A stretch of DNA of 64,000 bases. It comes from an uncultured Solirubrobacteraceae bacterium. GTDB taxonomy: Bacteria; Actinomycetota; Thermoleophilia; Solirubrobacterales; Solirubrobacteraceae. The position numbers and the translations under genes are program-made. Positions within the stretch are counted from its first letter, which is position 1; each line of letters opens with the position of its first letter. The stretch is from NCBI GenBank assembly GCA_902806205.1, contig CADCVR010000102.1:17640-81639 (forward strand), written 5' to 3'. A model generated the notes under the pieces. The model did not search any database. It worked only from the letters and a program-made list of their open reading frames with translations, and was not told where the DNA came from. Below are positions 9,091-47,484 of the stretch, one piece after another.

Positions 9091-9153
9091 CGGCCGCGCG
9101 TACCCCGGCCGGCGCCCGGATGAGTGCGCACGGGTAGCGTCCGTCGGACACCG

Positions 9154-9936
9154 ATGTCCGCGTTCTCGCCCGTCCGAACCCGCCGCACCTTCGAGGAGGC
9201 GGTGGAGCAGATCGCCGAGCGCATCTCGCTCGGCGAGCTCGCTCCCGGCGACCAGCTGCCGTCCGAGCGGACGCTCGCACAGCAGATGGAGATCTCACGC
9301 CCGACGGTGCGCGAGGCGCTCAAGGTGCTCGCCGACTCGGGAGTCATCGAGGTTCGCCCGGGCTCGGGTGGTGGCGCGTTCGTCCGCAGCGAGTTCGTGC
9401 CCCGCGAGGTCCTGCGGCGCGCCGCCGTGCGCATCGGCGAGGTCGGCGGTGTGCTGGAAGCGCGGCGCCTGCTCGAGCCGCGGGTCGCGCAGCTCGCGGC
9501 GCTTCACGGGCGCGAAGCGGACTTCACCGCGATGCAGCGCACGATCGAGCGGCAGGCGGCGATCGCCCACGCACCCGAGCGCTTCGCGGCCAACGAGGAC
9601 CGCTTCCTCGCCCTCGATGTGCAGTTCCACATCGGGATCGCCCGCGCCACGGGGAACGCGACGATCGTCGGGCTCGTGCGCTCGCTGCTGCGCCAGCTCG
9701 AGATCGCGCGCGACATGGCGCTCCACGTGCCCCGCTCCGTCGAGCGCTCGCTGGAGATCCACCAGGAGACGCTCGACGCGATCCGCTCGGGGGACATGCG
9801 CCGCGTCGACGAGATCATGGACGTCCACCTGGCGCAGCTCGAGGGAACCTGGGAGGAGGAGAGCGGCCGCTCCCTCGTGCGAGCGATCCCGGACTTCCTC
9901 AAGCCCGTGGCGGCGCGGGGCGCCAATCGCCGCTGA
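9154..9936 (+). CDS. FadR/GntR-family transcriptional regulator
   Basis: LPSERTLAQQMEISRPTVREAL wHTH; FCD domain (DVQFHIGIARATGN). Confidence 0.95.
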   Translation: MSAFSPVRTRRTFEEAVEQIAERISLGELAPGDQLPSERTLAQQMEISRPTVREALKVLADSGVIEVRPGSGGGAFVRSEFVPREVLRRAAVRIGEVGGVLEARRLLEPRVAQLAALHGREADFTAMQRTIERQAAIAHAPERFAANEDRFLALDVQFHIGIARATGNATIVGLVRSLLRQLEIARDMALHVPRSVERSLEIHQETLDAIRSGDMRRVDEIMDVHLAQLEGTWEEESGRSLVRAIPDFLKPVAARGANRR

Positions 9937-41114: not shown

Positions 41115-41861
41115 TCAGCCCGCCAGGTTCCTGCGCCGCAGTGACCACATCTGCGAGGCGCGCTCCAGTTCAAGCGCCGCGGCCCAGGGCAGTGCAGGCG
41201 GGCCCGTGCTCGCCCGCATGGAGCGCGCGGTACGTCGGGCGAGCTCCGGATCGCTCGCCGGGACGGCGGCGAGCTCCAGCGCGGTGGCGTCGACCCGGTC
41301 GGCCGGTACGGCGGTCCAAGCGAGGCCGAGCTCGACGGCCTGTGCCCCGGTGACGGTGGCGCCGAAGAGCTGCATGGCGTTGGCGGTCTCCCGCCCGGCC
41401 GCGCGCGAGAGAAGCAGCCCGTGGCCGCCGCCCGGATGCAGGCCGATCGGCAGGAACCCCGAGAGGAGCTTCGCGTCGGCGGCGACGACGCGCAGGTCGG
41501 TGGCCAGCGCGAGGTTCAGTCCCGCGCCGAGCGCGCCGCCGCGGATCGCCGCGATCGTCGGGGGCTCAAGCGTCCCCATGCGGGCGAAGGCGCGGTAGAT
41601 CGTGCCCATGTCGCGGTAGGCGGCCGGGGCGGCCGGATCCTCGCCGGCGGCGGCGAGCGTCGCGCGGTCGCCGCCGGCGCAGAAGTAGGGACCCTCGCCG
41701 CGGACGACGACCGCGCCGATCCCCGGGTCGCCGTCGATCGTCTCGCAGGCCTCGACCATGGCCTCGGCCATCGCGGGGGTCAGCGCGTTGCGCCGCTCGG
41801 GCGCCCGCAGGGTCACGACGGCGATGCCGTCCCGGCGTTCCAGCGTGAGCTGTTCGGACAT
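41115..41861 (-). CDS. Enoyl-CoA hydratase/isomerase family protein
   Basis: RRNAL, FCAGGD, ALGAGLNLALATDLR. Confidence 0.92.
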   Translation of the reverse strand: MSEQLTLERRDGIAVVTLRAPERRNALTPAMAEAMVEACETIDGDPGIGAVVVRGEGPYFCAGGDRATLAAAGEDPAAPAAYRDMGTIYRAFARMGTLEPPTIAAIRGGALGAGLNLALATDLRVVAADAKLLSGFLPIGLHPGGGHGLLLSRAAGRETANAMQLFGATVTGAQAVELGLAWTAVPADRVDATALELAAVPASDPELARRTARSMRASTGPPALPWAAALELERASQMWSLRRRNLAG

Positions 41862-41919: not shown

Positions 41920-42462
41920 TCAGGCGATCTCGCGCAGCGCTCCGGTGTCCACGTCGTAGACGAAGCCGCGGACGTGGTCGCGGTACGGCACGAAGGGGCT
42001 CTGCCGGACGCGCTGCACCGAGCTGCGCACGTCGAGATCGAGGTCGGTGAACGTCTCGACGGCCCAGCTCGGCTTCGTGCCGGTCTCCTCGAGCAGCTCG
42101 AGGCGCAGATCGTCCTCGGTGAAGGTGAGCATGCCGCAGTCGGTGTGGTGGACGAGGATGATCTCGCGCGTGCCGAGCTTGCGCTGGGAGATCGTCAGCG
42201 AGCGGATGACGTCATCGGTGGCGACGCCACCGGCGTTGCGGATCAGGTGGGCGTCCCCGGGCTGCAGCCCGAGGATGCCGAAGAGGTCCAGGCGGGCGTC
42301 CATGCACGCCACGACCGCCACGCGCCGCGCCGGTCGTGGCGTCCGCAACGGCGCCTCGAACGTCGTGGCGTGCCCGACCGCGCTGGCGACGAGCTCGTCG
42401 ATGACCGACGAGCCGGCAAGCTCTCGACGGCGATCGTGGTGGTTCCAGGCTGCGGCGGTCAC
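41920..42462 (-). CDS. Beta-class carbonic anhydrase (start uncertain)
   Basis: ACMDARL, IRNAGG, HHTDCGM zinc ligands. Confidence 0.93.
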   Translation of the reverse strand: MTAAAWNHHDRRRELAGSSVIDELVASAVGHATTFEAPLRTPRPARRVAVVACMDARLDLFGILGLQPGDAHLIRNAGGVATDDVIRSLTISQRKLGTREIILVHHTDCGMLTFTEDDLRLELLEETGTKPSWAVETFTDLDLDVRSSVQRVRQSPFVPYRDHVRGFVYDVDTGALREIA

Positions 42463-42519: not shown

Positions 42520-43608
42520 TCAGCAGATCCGCGGCAGCGGATCGCCGGCGAGCATGTCGACCACGCGGTTGCCACCGAAGGCGGTGTTCAGCAGCACCAT
42601 GCCCGGAGCCGTAGGGTCCTCCCGGAGCTCGCCGACGACCGCGGCGTCTCCGCCGAGCGGATGCCCACGCAGCGCGGCGAGCGCCGCCTCGACGCCGGCG
42701 GGGCCGACGACGGCCACGAGCTTGCCCTCGTTGGCGACGTACAGCGGGTCGATGCCGAGGATCTCACAGGCGCCGTGGACCTCCGGGCGGATCGGCAGCG
42801 CGGCCTCGTCGAGATCGACCGCGAGCTCCGTCGCGAGCGCCAGCTCGGCGAGGACCGTGGCCAGCCCCCCGCGCGTCGGGTCGCGGAGCCAGCGGACCTC
42901 GTCGGTGGCGTCGAGCAGGGCCGCCGTCAGCTCGTTGACCGAGGCGGTGTCGCTGCGCAGGTCGGTCTCCAGCTCGAGCTCGCCCCGGGCGACCATGATC
43001 GCCATCCCGTGATCGCCGAGGGTTCCCGAGACGATGACCTTGTCGCCGCTGCGCACCTGCTCCGGAGCGAGCACGATGTCACGCTCGTGCACGCCGACGC
43101 CCGCCGTGGTGATGTAGAGCCCGTCCGCCTTGCCGCGCTCGACGACCTTGGTGTCCCCGGTCACGATGGCGACTCCCGCCCGAGCGGCGGCGCCGGCCAT
43201 GGACTGGGCGATGCGCTCGAGTTCCGCGGTGGCCAGCCCCTCCTCGAGGATGAACGAGGCCGACAGCCACAGCGGACGGGCGCCGGCCATCGCCAGGTCG
43301 TTGACGGTGCCGTTGACCGCGAGCTCGCCGATGTCGCCGCCGGGGAAGAAGCGCGGCTTGACCACCGATGCGTCGGTGGTGAACGCCAGGCGCGGCGCCG
43401 TGCCCTCGACCTGCAACAGCGCCGAGTCGCCGAGCGCGTCGAGTGCCGGGTTGGTGAACGCCCGGCGGAAGACCATCTCGATCAGCGTGTGGGAGGACTT
43501 GCCGCCGGCACCGTGGGCCAGCGTGATCTGCTGGTCCATCAACTTGACGTGCGGGCGCCGGCGGCGACGCTCGATGGCGTCGAGGACGTCCTCCTCCGAA
43601 CGGCTCAC
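42520..43608 (-). CDS. hypE: Hydrogenase maturation protein HypE
   Basis: ITLAHGAGG, GGDIGELAVNGTVNDLAM, RDPTRGG, ANEGK, C-terminal LPRIC. Confidence 0.97.
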   Translation of the reverse strand: MSRSEEDVLDAIERRRRRPHVKLMDQQITLAHGAGGKSSHTLIEMVFRRAFTNPALDALGDSALLQVEGTAPRLAFTTDASVVKPRFFPGGDIGELAVNGTVNDLAMAGARPLWLSASFILEEGLATAELERIAQSMAGAAARAGVAIVTGDTKVVERGKADGLYITTAGVGVHERDIVLAPEQVRSGDKVIVSGTLGDHGMAIMVARGELELETDLRSDTASVNELTAALLDATDEVRWLRDPTRGGLATVLAELALATELAVDLDEAALPIRPEVHGACEILGIDPLYVANEGKLVAVVGPAGVEAALAALRGHPLGGDAAVVGELREDPTAPGMVLLNTAFGGNRVVDMLAGDPLPRIC

Positions 43609-44735
43609 GCGACGGAAGCCGGCTCGGGCGTGCGCCGTCCGGCGTGACGCCCGTAGTTGTAGTAGGCCGCGCAGGCGCCCTCGCTGGAGACCATGCACGT
43701 CCCGATGGGCCGATCCGGCGTGCACGAGGTCCCGAAGACCTTGCACTGCCAGGGCTTGATGACGCCCTTTAGGACCTCGCCGCACTGGCAGGCCTTGGGG
43801 TCGGCGACGCGCACGCCGGGAATGTCGTAGCGCACTTCCGCGTCCCAGACCGCGAGCTCGTCGCGAAGCTTCAGCGCGCTCTGGGAGATGAAGCCCAGCC
43901 CCCGCCACTCGAACGTCGTTCGCAGCTCCATCGTCTCGGCGATCGCCTTCAGCGCCAGGGGATTGCCCTCCTCGCGAACCACGCGCGAGTACTGGTTCTC
44001 CACCTCGGAGCGCCCCTCGGCGAGCTGGCGCATGAGCATGTAGACGCCCTGCAGGATGTCGAGCGGCTCGAATCCGGAGACCGCGATCGGCAGGTCGTAG
44101 TCCCGGCTGATGAACTCGTAGGGACGCGTCCCGATCACCGTCGAGACGTGGCCGGGCCCGATGAAGCCGTTGAGGCGCAGGTCGGGGGAGTCCAGGATCG
44201 AGCGGATCGCCGGGATGATCGTCACGTGGTTGGCGAAGAGCGAGAAGTTGGTGATCCCCTCCGCCCGAGCGCGCAGCAGGGTCACGGCCGTCGACGGGGT
44301 CGTCGTCTCGAAGCCGATGGCGAAGAAGACGACCTCGCGGTCCGGGTTCTCGCGCGCGATGCGCAGCGCGTCGAGCGGCGAGTAGACCATCCGCACGTCC
44401 GCTCCGCTGGCCTTGGCGTCGAGCAGCGACCCCTGGCTCGCGGGCACGCGCATCATGTCGCCGAAGGTCGTGAAGATGACTTCCGGGCGCTTGGCGATGG
44501 CGATGGCGTCGTCCTGGCGGCCCATCGGGATGACGCACACCGGGCATCCCGGTCCGTGCACCAGTTCGATCTCCGGCGGCAGGAGGTCCTCCACGCCGTG
44601 CTTGTAGATCGTGTGCGTGTGGCCGCCGCAGACCTCCATGAACTTGTAGTTGCGGCCGGGTTCGGCCAGCCCGGCGATCTGCTCGGCGACGCGCTTGGCC
44701 ACCTCTCCGGAACGGAACTCGTCGACGAATTTCAT
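43605..44735 (-). CDS. hypD: Hydrogenase maturation protein HypD
   Basis: MEVCGGHTH, GPGCPVC, GFETT, CMVSSEGAC. Confidence 0.98.
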   Translation of the reverse strand: MKFVDEFRSGEVAKRVAEQIAGLAEPGRNYKFMEVCGGHTHTIYKHGVEDLLPPEIELVHGPGCPVCVIPMGRQDDAIAIAKRPEVIFTTFGDMMRVPASQGSLLDAKASGADVRMVYSPLDALRIARENPDREVVFFAIGFETTTPSTAVTLLRARAEGITNFSLFANHVTIIPAIRSILDSPDLRLNGFIGPGHVSTVIGTRPYEFISRDYDLPIAVSGFEPLDILQGVYMLMRQLAEGRSEVENQYSRVVREEGNPLALKAIAETMELRTTFEWRGLGFISQSALKLRDELAVWDAEVRYDIPGVRVADPKACQCGEVLKGVIKPWQCKVFGTSCTPDRPIGTCMVSSEGACAAYYNYGRHAGRRTPEPASVA

Positions 44736-46090
44736 GTGGGGCTTCCTATCGCTTCGAGGATCAGGTGGTAGATCGTGGCCTGCGTCTCCTGCACGCGGGC
44801 CACGTCGTCGCTGGGCACCAGGAGCAGGTGGTCCAGCCAGTCGAATTCGCCGATCAACCCACCGGGGTGGGCGACGATCGCGCAGGTCTTCATCCCGCGA
44901 TGGTGGGCGGCGGCGAGCGCTTGCAGAAGGTTCTCGGACGACCCGTTCACCGAGAGGGCGATCGCGACGTCCCTGCTGTGTCCGAGGGTCGTGATCTGGC
45001 GGGCGAAGACGTTCTCGTAGCCGTCGTCGTCAGCCAGTGCCGTAACGGTGGCCGCGTCGTTGCCCAGCGCGAACGCGGTCCAGCCCTGGTTCAGCAGGTC
45101 GCCGGCGAAGTCCTGGGCGGCGGCGGCCGAGCCGCCGTTGCCGAACGTGAGCACGCGGCCGCCGGTCATCAGGCGCCTGCGGATCTTGCCCGCGCACCGT
45201 TCGATCTCGGCGACATCGAGTTCGCGCCTGAGCAGCAGGATCTCGCGTCCCTTCTGCGCGATCGACTCGCGGACGTCGCGGAGGGCCACGTCGATGTCGC
45301 GCTCGACGCGCTCGAGGAAGGGGTAGAGCGACGACGCGGGGACAGGGCCTTCCCCGGGGCCGGCGTCGAGGCGCTCGAGCGCCACGCCGGCGTGGCAGAG
45401 CAGGAGGTCACCCTGGGTGACTTCCTCGATCAGATCGCACGCGACATCTTCGCGGAGCCCGTCGATGTCGACGGTGGCGCCGTGCTCGGTCAGGGCGACG
45501 ACGCGGCCCGGGAGCGCGATGTCGCCGCAGGTGATGCAGGCCTCCTCGAGCAGTCCCGGGTGTTCGAAGAAGACCTGCACCAGCTCACACAGGAGCTGGT
45601 AGGCGACCTGCTGGACCTCTTGAACGACGTGGGGATCCGAGGAGTCGACCGTCAGCACGTGGTCGGCGCGGGGGGCCGTGCCCCCGGGGCCGACGAGCGC
45701 GACGGTCAGGGCGCCGCGCCGGGCGCCCGCGTCGAGAAAGGCGCGGGCGGGCTCGTCGACCGGCCCGTGCGTGAGGCTCAGGGCGATGTCGTCGCCCCCG
45801 AAGATCTGGGCACGCTGCGTCGCCCCCGTCGGATCGTTGGACGGCGCGAGCGCGGGAAACGAGCGCTTGCCGGCGACCGTGGGGTGCATGAGGGCGACGG
45901 CGACGCGCGCGGCGTCGGTCGCCGCGCTGGCGGACCCGTGGGCCAGCAGCACGCCGCCGCGGCCCAGGGACCGCGCGACGTCGTGGCAGGCGCGCGTGAG
46001 GCGCTCGCCGTGCTCGTCGAGGAAAGCGCTGAGCGCCCTCTCGCGATCGACCAGACGGGCGGTGAAGGGCGTGACGCCAGCCGCCGTCAC
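44732..46090 (-). CDS. Triple fusion: GmhA-like SIS domain, HypC/HupF-like domain, GmhA-like SIS domain
   Basis: N-terminal SIS (ALMHPTVAGKRSFPAL, VQEVQQVAY); central CITCGD...DLLLCHAGVAL; C-terminal SIS (FGNGGS, ALGND, SVNGSSEN, RVQETQ); no stop between them; GTGA overlap with hypC. Confidence 0.8.
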   Translation of the reverse strand: MTAAGVTPFTARLVDRERALSAFLDEHGERLTRACHDVARSLGRGGVLLAHGSASAATDAARVAVALMHPTVAGKRSFPALAPSNDPTGATQRAQIFGGDDIALSLTHGPVDEPARAFLDAGARRGALTVALVGPGGTAPRADHVLTVDSSDPHVVQEVQQVAYQLLCELVQVFFEHPGLLEEACITCGDIALPGRVVALTEHGATVDIDGLREDVACDLIEEVTQGDLLLCHAGVALERLDAGPGEGPVPASSLYPFLERVERDIDVALRDVRESIAQKGREILLLRRELDVAEIERCAGKIRRRLMTGGRVLTFGNGGSAAAAQDFAGDLLNQGWTAFALGNDAATVTALADDDGYENVFARQITTLGHSRDVAIALSVNGSSENLLQALAAAHHRGMKTCAIVAHPGGLIGEFDWLDHLLLVPSDDVARVQETQATIYHLILEAIGSPT

Positions 46091-46365
46091 TCGATCTTGC
46101 TCCCCTCGAGCTCGGCGAGCTCCTCGTGCCAGGGGTCGCCCAACTGGATCAGGAACTCCAGCGTCGACTTCGCCTCCTCCTCGTCGATCTTCGACATGGC
46201 GAAGCCGACGTGGATGAGGACCCAGTCCCCGACGTCGACGGCGTCCGGACCGTCGGCCAACAGGCCGACGTTGACCGCGCGGCGGACGCCGGAGACCTCG
46301 GCCTTGGCGATGTTGGTCTTCACGTCGACCCACTCGATGATCTGTCCGGGGATTCCTAGGCACAT
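46087..46365 (-). CDS. hypC: Hydrogenase chaperone HypC
   Basis: MCLGIPG, GDWVLIHVGFAM; AAGGAG RBS. Confidence 0.97.
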   Translation of the reverse strand: MCLGIPGQIIEWVDVKTNIAKAEVSGVRRAVNVGLLADGPDAVDVGDWVLIHVGFAMSKIDEEEAKSTLEFLIQLGDPWHEELAELEGSKIE

Positions 46366-46490
46366 GGTGTTCTCCTTGCCGCGATCGCGGCCTGTCCGAA
46401 GCTGATCCCGGCATCGTCGCGCGAGATGTTGGAAAAGGGGGCCTTCTGAGACTAGGACCACGCGCAAGCCATGGTTCGGGTCACATGGTA

Positions 46491-46507
46491 GATGTAGCGG
46501 ACACACA
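46491..46507. promoter_or_regulatory. Candidate operator motif, copy 1 (GATGTAGCGGACACACA)
   Basis: Matches TG-N9-CACA pattern seen upstream of three other locus units. Confidence 0.35.
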
Positions 46508-46688
46508 CCGCGGGACCACGCCGGCCGGCGCGGCTACTTGGCGCGACGGGGGTCGCCCGTCCGCTCTGCTTCGAACACTCAGCTGGTGTTGCTCCGCGCA
46601 CCGGTCCAGGCCGCGCCTCCCGCAAGATCGCGTGCAGTGCAGGAGATTCTTTGCCGTGGGCGACGGCCTGGCGTACCGTGGCCGCGCC

Positions 46689-47225
46689 ATGACACGCCAA
46701 TTCCAGCCTGCCGTCACCGATCTGCGCCGCGCCATCGACGGCCTCTCCGGTCGAACCCGCGAAGCCATGCTCGAGGGCATCGAGTGCGAGGCCGTGATCA
46801 CCGGCGGTTACATGGACAACGATGGCGGGGTCTGCCCGATGCTCGCCGCCCACCGGCAGGGGGCGCGCGCCAACTTCGTCCTCTTCGCCGGGGCGTGGGA
46901 CCACTTCACCGGTGTGGACGGCCTCAGCATCACCCGCCGCGCCACTCCGCGCGAGCTCGGCGCCCTGGTCGCCCAGCTCGAGGAGAGCCTGCAGAGCGAG
47001 GGGCCGCTGTCGGACCTGGCGGCTGCGATCGCCGATCACAAGGCCCTCGCGCGTGCCCGCCGTGACCCCGGGCCGTGGTCCGACCTGGCGGCCGCGATCG
47101 CCGACCATCAGGTGCTCGCCCGTGCCCGTCGCGAGCGCGAGGCGTCCGGCGTCGGCCTCGACTGGCTTCACGGCGGGGACGACGCTCCGGTGGTGGAGCC
47201 GCAGCGGAGCCTCGCCCTGGCGTAG
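46689..47225 (+). CDS. Hypothetical protein with internal 23-aa tandem duplication
   Basis: GGVCPMLAAHR motif; GPxSDLAAAIADHxxLARARR twice (69-bp unit at 47001 and 47070). Confidence 0.75.
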   Translation: MTRQFQPAVTDLRRAIDGLSGRTREAMLEGIECEAVITGGYMDNDGGVCPMLAAHRQGARANFVLFAGAWDHFTGVDGLSITRRATPRELGALVAQLEESLQSEGPLSDLAAAIADHKALARARRDPGPWSDLAAAIADHQVLARARREREASGVGLDWLHGGDDAPVVEPQRSLALA

Positions 47226-47402
47226 GGGTCCTGGGGCGTGTCGCGGCGGTCTCGGCCGCCGCTCGGGCGCTCTCGGGGCGGACCGCCCGCGCGCGGACGC
47301 GGGGCTGCGCTGGATGCCGGCCGCGAGACGGTCGGGGCCGGCCTCCGACCGTGTTAGGTCCCCGACACTGTGTTCGACGCACTTAGCCGCGTTCTTCGCC
47401 GG

Positions 47403-47419
47403 TGTGTATGGTCGCCACA
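47403..47419. promoter_or_regulatory. Candidate operator motif, copy 2 (TGTGTATGGTCGCCACA)
   Basis: GGTGTG-N9-CACACC inverted repeat 65 bp upstream of hydrogenase pair 1. Confidence 0.45.
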
Positions 47420-47484
47420 CCTAGCGGTGAGCGCGGGCGCACGTTGCGCCCGCTGCGCCGTGCCGAACCAGGAGAAGCGGGAAG

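What the first reader, a model, noticed from the sequence alone, without database searches (positions are those of the whole stretch)
44732..46090. Single-chain SIS-HypC-SIS fusion between hypC and hypD
Seen: one 452-aa ORF with a degenerate GmhA-like SIS domain, an internal HypC/HupF-like domain starting CITCGD, and a more intact GmhA-like domain. Known: actinobacterial high-affinity hydrogenase clusters carry separate phosphoheptose-isomerase-like and HypC-like genes of unknown role, and canonical HypC needs a free N-terminal Cys. Inference: the fusion implies these parts act as one complex; the buried CxxC cannot work like HypC Cys2, so it may be a metal or sugar-phosphate-responsive maturation factor.
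Basis: partly seen in the sequence, partly recalled or inferred. Interest (0 to 1): 0.65.

Follow-up and report, generated by a model that had tools for sequence, protein, structure and literature searches.

The report
SIS–HypC-like–SIS hydrogenase maturation helper
This is a real gene in a nickel-iron hydrogenase assembly operon that joins two sugar-isomerase-like halves to a cysteine-bearing relative of the iron chaperone HypC; the family is widespread and unstudied, and this copy has lost its small-molecule pocket while an intact split copy sits elsewhere in the genome.

Summary
Window 44732-46090 (-) is one 452-aa ORF. Its GTG start overlaps the hypC stop and its stop overlaps the hypD ATG. 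It has an N-terminal SIS domain, a HypC-like OB barrel and a C-terminal GmhA-like SIS domain.

It is not an assembly artefact and not unique. More than 600 database proteins share the architecture. The same three parts also occur as SIS-SIS plus a small HypC-like gene, as [SIS-HypC-like] plus [SIS], or as a single SIS gene between hypC and hypD.

This genome also carries the split form, in its group 1h cluster. hypF, hypA and hypB exist only there. hypC, hypD, hypE and the SIS/HypC-like unit are duplicated, which ties the protein to the HypCDE iron-cofactor module.

The HypC-like domain has Asp where HypC has Cys2. It keeps an invariant CxTC-G-D motif and C-H-A-G.

Specific to this copy's sub-lineage, the N-SIS His/Glu and the C-SIS phosphate loop were lost together. 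The gene also evolves about ten times faster than hypD (dN/dS 0.25). It is therefore not an isomerase and most likely acts as a scaffold or chaperone. I found no published function.

The parts
46087..46365 (-). Canonical hypC (92 aa, MCLGIPG...). Its TGA stop overlaps the GTG start of the fusion gene.
   Evidence: Pfam HupF_HypC 4e-26 over the full model. Matches E. coli HypC 2ot2 at 1e-13 from residue 1.
44732..46090 (-). SIS - HypC-like - SIS fusion gene (452 aa plus stop).
45548..46069 (-). N-terminal SIS domain (aa 8-181). In this copy the family's conserved H62, E66, H165, H172 and W168 are R, A, Q, Q and C. It has no phosphate loop; H108 sits there instead.
   Evidence: Second SIS_2 stretch, AF2 alpha/beta fold, column counts.
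45356..45547 (-). HypC-like OB-fold domain (aa 182-245), with five beta strands at 193-241.
   Evidence: HupF_HypC 4.3e-13, HMM positions 3-55 of 65. HypC structures 2z1c and 3vyr at 7e-6. AF2 model.
45527..45538 (-). C185-I-T-C188 (CxxC), followed by G189-D190. D190 aligns with HypC Cys2.
   Evidence: C185, T187 and C188 are invariant and D190 is present in 118 of 119. They are 97% conserved in 35 diverse representatives.
45392..45397 (-). C232-H233 of the CHAG motif. H233 is the equivalent of HypC His51.
   Evidence: H233 is invariant and C232 is present in 118 of 119. H233 is 97% conserved in the broad set.
45305..45355 (-). Disordered inter-domain linker (aa 246-262). This is the point where split forms are cut.
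   Evidence: pLDDT below 50. In genome G003 the gene boundary, with a GTGA overlap, falls here. dN/dS is highest here.
44741..45304 (-). C-terminal GmhA-like SIS domain (aa 263-450). GNGGS is kept. The zinc-ligand positions read D327/D331/Q434/H442. The phosphate loop reads S-V-N-G-S-S instead of S-T-S-G-S-S. D324 is Ala and N354 is Asp.
43605..44735 (-). hypD. Its ATG overlaps the fusion gene's stop (ATGA).
   Evidence: Pfam HypD 4e-157.
42520..43611 (-). hypE.
   Evidence: Pfam AIRS and AIRS_C. 56% identical to C. necator HypE2.

Best explanation
The gene encodes a single-chain member of a widespread, uncharacterised accessory family. That family belongs to the HypC-HypD-HypE module, which builds and delivers the Fe(CN)2CO group, in oxygen-tolerant group 1h, 1h-like (called 1l in earlier notes of this scan) and 2a [NiFe]-hydrogenases.

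Its two SIS domains form a pseudo-dimeric platform, comparable to a GmhA dimer or the tandem-SIS isomerase domain of GlmS. A HypC-paralogous OB barrel is inserted in the linker between them. That barrel lacks HypC's N-terminal Cys2, which is Asp here. Instead it carries C-x-T-C-G-D just upstream and C-H-A-G at the His51 position. I infer that these form a Cys/His metal-binding or redox-active site. I also infer that the domain docks on HypD or on the apo large subunit as HypC paralogues do.

In most family members one GmhA-like site appears intact, and I infer it is composite. It would combine N-SIS His/Glu with C-SIS phosphate loop, Gln and His, and would bind a phosphorylated ligand. In this window's sub-lineage both halves of that site are destroyed. 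Here the protein can therefore only act as a scaffold or chaperone dedicated to the window's two 1h-like hydrogenases. Any ligand chemistry would be left to the intact split paralogue in the genome's group 1h cluster.

What is shown: gene reality, architecture, module-level linkage, residue losses and weaker constraint. What is inferred: metal or redox role of the Cys/His residues, docking on HypD, and the composite nature of the SIS site.
For: - Translational coupling to hypC and hypD.
- More than 600 homologues share the architecture. In L011 and L012 the order is hypF-hypC-fusion-hypD-hypE, next to the same type of hydrogenase cluster.
- The same parts occur as separate genes. Own genome contig C79 has hypC, a small HCITCSD gene, hypD, hypE and later a SIS-SIS gene followed by hypF. 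Thermus, Mycobacterium, C. necator PHG074 and O. carboxidovorans give further arrangements. G003 has a two-gene form cut in the linker.
- Only hypC, hypD, hypE and the SIS/HypC-like unit are duplicated in this genome. hypF, hypA and hypB are single copy, on C79.
- CxTC..D..H-A-G is 97% conserved over 35 diverse representatives.
- The AF2 model is confident (pLDDT 89, pTM 0.83). Foldseek matches GmhA and DiaA for single domains and GlmS tandem SIS for the whole protein.
- H62/E66 and the C-SIS phosphate loop are lost together in 11 of 119 sequences, all in this sub-lineage, with varied replacement residues.
- The four species genomes checked that have the fusion and no SIS-SIS keep both halves.
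- dN/dS is 0.2-0.27 in all three domains, so the gene is still under selection.
- A canonical GmhA exists elsewhere in the genome, on contig C83.
- GmhA active sites are built from two monomers (PMC7705670).
Against: - No experiment and no complex model were possible. I could not read model coordinates, so the proximity of C185, C188, C232 and H233, and the composite nature of the SIS site, are untested.
- dN is ten times that of hypD in the same genome pair (0.081 against 0.008). Combined with the lost conserved residues, this also fits a redundant gene in slow decay.
- The Asp-Asp pair of the C-SIS is not universal. The mycobacterial C-SIS has Thr and Leu there.
- The 'dead when redundant' pattern rests on one genome against four.
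Confidence: 0.6

Rival explanations
1. It is a redundant paralogue in slow decay. The genome's group 1h cluster already supplies an intact SIS-SIS protein and a HypC-like protein, so this copy contributes nothing and is drifting toward a pseudogene.
For: It has lost H62, E66, H165, H172, W168, D324, N354, T381 and S382, which are 85-98% conserved in the family. dN/dS is 0.25 against 0.04 for hypD and 0.10 for hypE in the same genome pair. An intact split copy lies on C79.
Against: The ORF is intact in at least 11 members that have diverged to 62-85% identity. dN/dS is below 0.3 in every domain and 0.02-0.2 in the HypC-like domain. CxTC, D190, CHAG, D327, D331, E435 and H442 are invariant in the sub-lineage. 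The overlaps with hypC and hypD are kept in relatives L013-L015.
Confidence: 0.13
2. It is a thiol-disulfide relay. The CxTC of the OB domain would be redox-active and would keep HypD or HypC cysteines reduced during cofactor assembly in air, with the SIS platform serving only as an anchor.
For: The CxxC motif is invariant. The family occurs with aerobic hydrogenases. Glutaredoxin-like genes accompany the module in Thermus and in Acidobacteria (PMC5900883). From established knowledge, HypD has a ferredoxin:thioredoxin-reductase-like redox cascade.
Against: No glutaredoxin gene sits next to either module in this genome. The conserved His and Asp beside the cysteines suggest metal ligation more than a simple dithiol.
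Confidence: 0.15
3. It is an active D-sedoheptulose-7-phosphate isomerase (GmhA), as many database names state.
For: The C-terminal domain matches GmhA models at 1e-34 to 1e-36 and GmhA crystal structures at TM about 0.85.
Against: Scores are far below the equivalog cut-offs (125.8 against 276; 118.8 against 209.45). Two of the four zinc ligands, which are completely conserved in GmhA (PMC5705639), are Asp in the C-SIS, and three of four are lost in the N-SIS. The phosphate loop reads S-V-N-G. A canonical GmhA gene is present on C83.
Confidence: 0.03
4. The fusion is an assembly or frameshift artefact joining separate genes.
For: Split forms exist in other genomes.
Against: GC3 is uniform in one frame. 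Hundreds of independent contigs from NCBI, JGI, ENA and Logan give proteins of the same length and architecture.
Confidence: 0.01

Closest known systems
HypC / HybG / HupF / HoxL family (Pfam PF01455)
   Same: It has the OB-fold barrel and the conserved His of the H-x-G motif (His51 equivalent, H233). It lies in a hyp operon next to hypD.
   Different: The domain is internal. Cys2 is replaced by Asp190. It has an extra CxTC two to five residues upstream. The C-terminal helix is missing (HMM positions 3-55 of 65). It scores below the TIGR00074 cut-off (42.4 against 48). A canonical HypC is always encoded alongside it.
GmhA (D-sedoheptulose-7-phosphate isomerase; PDB 1tk9, 2x3y, 5i01, 2i2w)
   Same: SIS_2 fold (TM 0.8-0.9). 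GNGGS, Q434, E435 and H442 are kept in the C-SIS.
   Different: The zinc ligands His and Glu are Asp and Asp in the C-SIS and Arg and Ala in the N-SIS. The phosphate loop is degenerate. It is a tandem pseudo-dimer rather than a homotetramer. Its context is a hyp operon, not a heptose pathway.
hyp-cluster 'gmhA'/SIS genes of group 1h and 2a loci (C. necator pHG1 PHG074, M. smegmatis MSMEG_2706, Frankia FsymDg_2476, Acidobacteria)
   Same: Same family and same operon position, between or beside hypC, hypD and hypE. They are noted in the literature with no assigned function (PMC11879354, PMC5900883, PMC12727194, PMC5445863).
   Different: Those are single SIS genes (PHG074 keeps all GmhA catalytic residues) or two-gene forms. 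Here all three parts are one chain and the ligand site is dead.
DiaA (GmhA-like SIS protein that scaffolds DnaA oligomers)
   Same: It is a precedent for a GmhA-fold protein that acts as a non-catalytic assembly scaffold. Sequence match 1e-24 and structure matches 2yva and 4u6n.
   Different: There is no DnaA context, and the score is far below the cut-off (87 against 352).
GlmS / GFAT isomerase module (tandem SIS domains)
   Same: Two SIS domains in one chain pack as a pseudo-dimer. Foldseek gives TMq about 0.5 over the whole model.
   Different: Sequence identity is only 10-12%. There is no glutaminase domain, and GlmS has no OB-domain insert.

Membership tests
HypC/HupF family | OB-fold beta barrel matching PF01455 | tested here: met
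   HupF_HypC 49.6 bits against the cut-off of 28.5. Five strands at 193-241 in the AF2 model.
HypC/HupF family | Cys at position 2, becoming the free N-terminus (essential for Fe binding with HypD; established knowledge) | tested here: not met
   HMM position 3 aligns with I191, so the Cys2 position is D190. It is Asp in 118 of 119 sequences. The domain starts at residue 182 of the chain.
HypC/HupF family | Conserved His (E. coli His51) in the (V/I)-H-x-G motif | tested here: met
   H233 in CHAG is invariant in 119 sequences and 97% conserved in the broad set.
HypC/HupF family | NCBIfam TIGR00074 subfamily cut-off | tested here: not met
   42.4 bits against the cut-off of 48.
GmhA (sedoheptulose-7-phosphate isomerase) | SIS_2 fold | tested here: met
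GmhA (sedoheptulose-7-phosphate isomerase) | Zinc ligands His64, Glu68, Gln175 and His183 (B. pseudomallei numbering), completely conserved in orthologues (PMC5705639) | tested here: not met
   The C-SIS has D327, D331, Q434 and H442. The N-SIS has R62, A66, Q157 and Q165.
GmhA (sedoheptulose-7-phosphate isomerase) | Phosphate-binding S-T-S-G-x-S loop | tested here: not met
   The C-SIS has S-V-N-G-S-S. The N-SIS has L-T-H-G-P-V.
GmhA (sedoheptulose-7-phosphate isomerase) | Equivalog model cut-offs | tested here: not met
   NF010546 scores 125.8 against 276. TIGR00441 scores 118.8 against 209.45.
GmhA (sedoheptulose-7-phosphate isomerase) | Isomerase activity and homotetramer | not testable with these tools
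   Needs an enzyme assay and a measurement of oligomeric state.
hyp-linked SIS / CxTC-HypC-like accessory family (unnamed) | N-SIS, CxTC-type OB domain and C-SIS encoded within a hypC-hypD-hypE module | tested here: met
hyp-linked SIS / CxTC-HypC-like accessory family (unnamed) | Family-conserved ligand residues: N-SIS H62, E66, H165 and C-SIS D324, N354, T381, S382 | tested here: not met
   The window protein has R, A, Q and A, D, V, N at these positions. The residues are 85-94% conserved in 68 and 106 diverse representatives.
DiaA | Equivalog cut-off and DnaA partnership | tested here: not met
   87.4 bits against the cut-off of 352. The context is a hyp operon.

The most novel reading that the evidence does not exclude
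The intact GmhA-like site of this family makes a diffusible small molecule needed for the Fe(CN)2CO cofactor in air-living bacteria. One candidate is a HypX-independent precursor of the carbonyl ligand derived from a sugar phosphate. The window's protein would then be a natural separation-of-function variant. Its catalysis is lost because the genome's other, intact copy supplies the product in trans, while the HypC-like and SIS scaffold is still required in cis for the second hydrogenase cluster.

Points that fit:
- The genome has no HypX.
- Only 9 of 401 sampled genomes of the phylum have HypX.
- The dead site occurs in the one species genome examined that carries two copies. The four species genomes checked that have the fusion and no SIS-SIS keep the site.

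Point that does not fit:
- HypX and hyp-type SIS proteins co-occur in at least four sampled genomes and in C. necator.
Probability: 0.08. Interest if true: 0.85.

Novelty: new variant of a known kind. Interest (0 to 1): 0.45.

Why it matters
The hydrogenases that consume atmospheric H2 (groups 1h, 1l and 2a) are a major sink in the global hydrogen cycle, yet how their metal centre is assembled in air is only partly understood. A 'gmhA' gene in their maturation operons has been noted for years without any explanation.

The set of fused, half-fused and split forms shows that two complementary SIS halves and a CxTC-type HypC relative form one functional unit. That unit travels with HypC, HypD and HypE.

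This window adds a natural variant in which the small-molecule pocket is destroyed but the HypC-like signature is untouched, next to an intact paralogue in the same genome. That separates a scaffold role from a ligand role and gives concrete mutants and complementation tests for M. smegmatis or C. necator.

Tried and rejected
- I could not measure distances between C185, C188, C232 and H233, or test whether N-SIS H62/E66 face the C-SIS phosphate loop. Model coordinates are not exposed and /data holds none.
- A complex prediction with HypD or the large subunit is not possible with the single-chain tool.
- The idea that the SIS unit replaces HypX was tested by co-occurrence. HypX is absent from this genome and rare in the phylum (9 of 401 genomes). 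However, G252, G294, G326 and G422 have both, so there is no mutual exclusion. The idea is kept only as a low-probability reading.
- Nine full-text literature searches found no functional study of the hyp-linked SIS or GmhA genes, only mentions of them.
- A plain GC3 filter did not separate genes from antisense frames in this 70% GC window.
- The 248-aa crotonase downstream of hypE was considered as a split HypX C-terminal domain. tblastn with C. necator HypX found nothing in the genome at E 1e-3, so I rejected this.
Full report
OBSERVATION

Window 44732-46090 on the minus strand is one open frame of 452 codons plus a stop.
- Its GTG start at 46090-46088 overlaps the TGA of a canonical hypC (46087-46365, MCLGIPG...; Pfam 4e-26).
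- A GGGGAG motif lies 9 nt upstream of the start (read).
- Its stop overlaps the ATG of hypD (43605-44735; Pfam HypD 4e-157). hypE follows at 42520-43611.
- Third-position GC is 0.86-0.98 in this one frame along the whole ORF.

Domain evidence:
- Pfam finds SIS_2 (1.8e-17, two stretches), HupF_HypC (4.3e-13, residues 191-243) and SIS.
- NCBIfam gmhA models match residues 293-448 at 1e-34 to 1e-36, but at less than 60% of their cut-off scores.
- PDB sequence search finds GmhA and DiaA for residues 273-450 and HypC for 191-243.
- An AlphaFold2 model built on 119 homologues is confident (pLDDT 89, pTM 0.83). It shows an alpha/beta domain at 8-175, a five-stranded barrel at 193-241, a disordered linker at 243-262 and a second alpha/beta domain at 266-448.
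- Foldseek matches GmhA and DiaA per domain (TM 0.8-0.9). It matches the tandem-SIS isomerase module of GlmS for the whole chain.

NOT AN ARTEFACT AND NOT RARE

A search of 5.8 billion proteins returned 616 hits among the candidates scored. The best 120 are all 430-500 aa with the same Pfam set. They come from NCBI, JGI, ENA and Logan, and are named 'SIS domain-containing protein' or 'D-sedoheptulose 7-phosphate isomerase'.

In two long contigs the order is five small genes, then hypF-hypC-fusion-hypD-hypE. This is divergent from a small subunit, a 647-aa large subunit, NifU-Rieske, a protease, and AAA and VWA_CoxE genes (in L012 only the hyp side is on the contig). That is the same kind of cluster as in the window.

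The window's 639-aa large subunit is closest to the C. necator group 1h enzyme 5aa5 (3e-143) at about 40% identity. Earlier notes of this scan call the cluster group 1l. I did not test that label further.

THE SAME PARTS OCCUR SEPARATELY

- This genome has a second hydrogenase cluster on contig C79, with a large subunit 74% identical to HofG. It contains hypC, then an approximately 84-aa gene reading ...YHCITCSDEG...LLVHAGTAL, then hypD, hypE and hypA. Further on come hypB, a 383-aa SIS-SIS protein with no OB insert, and hypF.
- Thermus thermophilus pTHTHE1601 has hypC, a 75-aa CATCGD protein, hypD, hypE, a 392-aa SIS-SIS protein, a glutaredoxin-like gene and hypF.
- A Mycobacterium plasmid has hypF, hypC, [N-SIS-HypC-like, 236 aa], [C-SIS, 218 aa], hypE, hypC and hypD. 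This matches the two adjacent 'phosphoheptose isomerase' genes reported for M. indicus pranii, MSMEG_2706 (gmhA) in M. smegmatis, and the 'hypothetical plus gmhA' pair in Frankia (PMC3505973, PMC5445863, PMC11879354).
- C. necator pHG1 (PHG074) and O. carboxidovorans have a single 230-aa SIS gene between hypC and hypD. PHG074 keeps every GmhA catalytic residue.

Counts:
- Among the 150 best 50%-identity cluster representatives I counted about 63 SIS-SIS, 42 single C-SIS-like, about 19 triple fusions and about 14 N-SIS-HypC-like proteins.
- In 401 species genomes of the phylum the full fusion occurs in 2. The two-gene form occurs in about 4, and SIS-SIS in at least 35.
- In 121 genomes of the family the fusion occurs in 5.
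- In genome G003 the two-gene form is cut by a GTGA overlap exactly in the linker that is disordered in the model.

WHICH MODULE IT BELONGS TO

In this genome hypF, hypA and hypB are single copy, on C79. hypC, hypD, hypE and the SIS/HypC-like unit are present in both clusters. The unit therefore travels with the proteins that assemble and deliver Fe(CN)2CO, not with the nickel-insertion proteins. A canonical HypC accompanies it in every arrangement seen, so it adds to HypC rather than replacing it.

ANATOMY OF THE HYPC-LIKE DOMAIN

HMM position 3 aligns with I191, so the Cys2 position is D190, which is Asp in 118 of 119 sequences. C185, T187 and C188 are invariant. So are H233, A234 and G235; C232 is present in 118 of 119.

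Across 35 diverse representatives, including free-standing proteins, C185, C188, D190 and H233 are each 97% conserved. In the free-standing proteins the CxTC is also not N-terminal.

This is a distinct HypC subfamily that cannot use a free N-terminal cysteine. It fails TIGR00074 (42.4 against 48) and lacks HypC's C-terminal helix. I infer that the two Cys, the His and a variable fourth ligand (Cys232 here) form a metal-binding or redox site. That is not shown.

ANATOMY OF THE SIS DOMAINS

GmhA binds zinc through His64, Glu68, Gln175 and His183, which are completely conserved in orthologues (PMC5705639). Its active site is built from two monomers (PMC7705670).

In the family consensus:
- The N-SIS keeps D59, H62, E66, Q157 and H165. 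It has no phosphate loop; H108 sits there instead.
- The C-SIS keeps GNGGS, the S-T-S-G-S-S loop, Q434, E435 and H442. It has Asp at both the His and the Glu positions (D327, D331).

The two halves are complementary. I infer that they form one canonical composite pocket and one remodelled one.

WHAT IS SPECIAL ABOUT THIS COPY

The window protein has R62, A66, Q165, Q172 and C168 in the N-SIS. In the C-SIS it has A324, D354, V381 and N382. These positions are 85-94% conserved in 68 and 106 diverse representatives.

In the 119-sequence alignment, all 11 sequences without H62/E66 also lack an intact phosphate loop. 107 sequences have both, and one is intermediate. The 11 are the window's closest relatives (62-85% identity). 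They carry different replacement residues, which is the signature of relaxed constraint at those positions. Meanwhile CxTC, D190, CHAG, D327, D331, E435 and H442 stay invariant.

The four species genomes checked (G047, G612, G524 and G603) have the fusion and no SIS-SIS paralogue. All keep both halves of the site. The one species genome examined with a dead-site fusion is this one, which also has the intact C79 copy. I could not check the rest of the genomes of the other ten dead-site sequences. That is one case against four, so it is only suggestive.

Against relative L013:
- The gene has dN 0.081 and dN/dS 0.25, and all three domains lie at 0.20-0.27.
- hypD has dN 0.008 and dN/dS 0.04. hypE has dN/dS 0.10.

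The gene is therefore under selection, but much more weakly than its neighbours. A canonical GmhA with all signature residues is on contig C83, so heptose synthesis does not depend on this gene.

EXPLANATION

Most likely (about 0.6) this is a scaffold or chaperone form of the hyp-linked SIS/HypC-like accessory factor. It presents a CxTC-type HypC paralogue to HypD or the apo large subunit during Fe(CN)2CO assembly for the window's two hydrogenases. Its ancestral ligand pocket is disabled.

Rivals:
- Slow decay of a redundant paralogue (0.13).
- A thiol-disulfide relay role for the CxTC motif (0.15). This overlaps with the main reading.
- True GmhA activity (0.03).
- An assembly artefact (0.01).

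THE HYPX QUESTION

The genome has no HypX, and only 9 of 401 sampled genomes do. However, four of those nine also carry hyp-type SIS proteins, and C. necator has both. A strict 'SIS instead of HypX' pattern is therefore not supported.

LITERATURE AND NOVELTY

The papers I could search mention gmhA or SIS genes in group 1h and 2a loci without assigning a function (PMC11879354, PMC5900883, PMC12727194, PMC7735108). None describes the fusion or the CxTC subfamily.

Earlier notes of this scan (AI notes, not independent evidence) reached similar family-level readings in other genomes. I found them after forming my own reading. They lower the novelty of this instance.

What is new here is the dead-site sub-lineage sitting beside an intact paralogue.

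NOT DONE

- Distances within the model and complex prediction were not possible.

Noticed in passing
window 41920-42462 (-) and 41115-41861 (-): A beta-carbonic anhydrase gene (Pro_CA, 2e-13) starts 57 bp downstream of hypE, followed by an enoyl-CoA hydratase gene. The carbonic anhydrase is also downstream of hypE in relative L013 (84% identical, dN/dS 0.31). It is absent from L011, L012 and L015. A carbonic anhydrase in a hyp operon is unusual.
   Followed up: partly
own genome G000 contig C79:31683-46292: There is a second, group 1h-type cluster whose large subunit is 74% identical to C. necator HofG. It holds the genome's only hypA, hypB and hypF. It also holds the split version of the finding: an approximately 84-aa HCITCSD HypC-like gene between hypC and hypD, and a 383-aa SIS-SIS gene directly before hypF.
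   Followed up: yes
window 46366-47484: About 1.1 kb between hypC and the first hydrogenase small-subunit gene has no ORF with coding-like codon-position GC. The 322-aa ORF at 46452-47420 (-) has no Pfam hit and atypical GC by codon position. Local GC ranges from 0.64 to 0.80. It could be regulatory or non-coding RNA.
   Followed up: partly
own genome G000 contig C83:3279-3758: This is a canonical GmhA gene with GNGGS, H..E, STSG, IQE and H all intact. It is presumably the housekeeping heptose isomerase.
   Followed up: partly
same-genus genomes G526, G570, G604: The three other species of the window's genus in the sample carry only the SIS-SIS form and no triple fusion. The window's 1h-like cluster therefore seems patchily distributed within the genus, through gain or loss.
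   Followed up: no
L009 (Thermus thermophilus pTHTHE1601) 9130-9390: A 'Uxx-star family glutaredoxin-like (seleno)protein' gene overlaps the end of the SIS-SIS gene. A putative glutaredoxin was also drawn next to gmhA in acidobacterial group 1h loci (PMC5900883). This may indicate a thiol-redox partner of the module.
   Followed up: no
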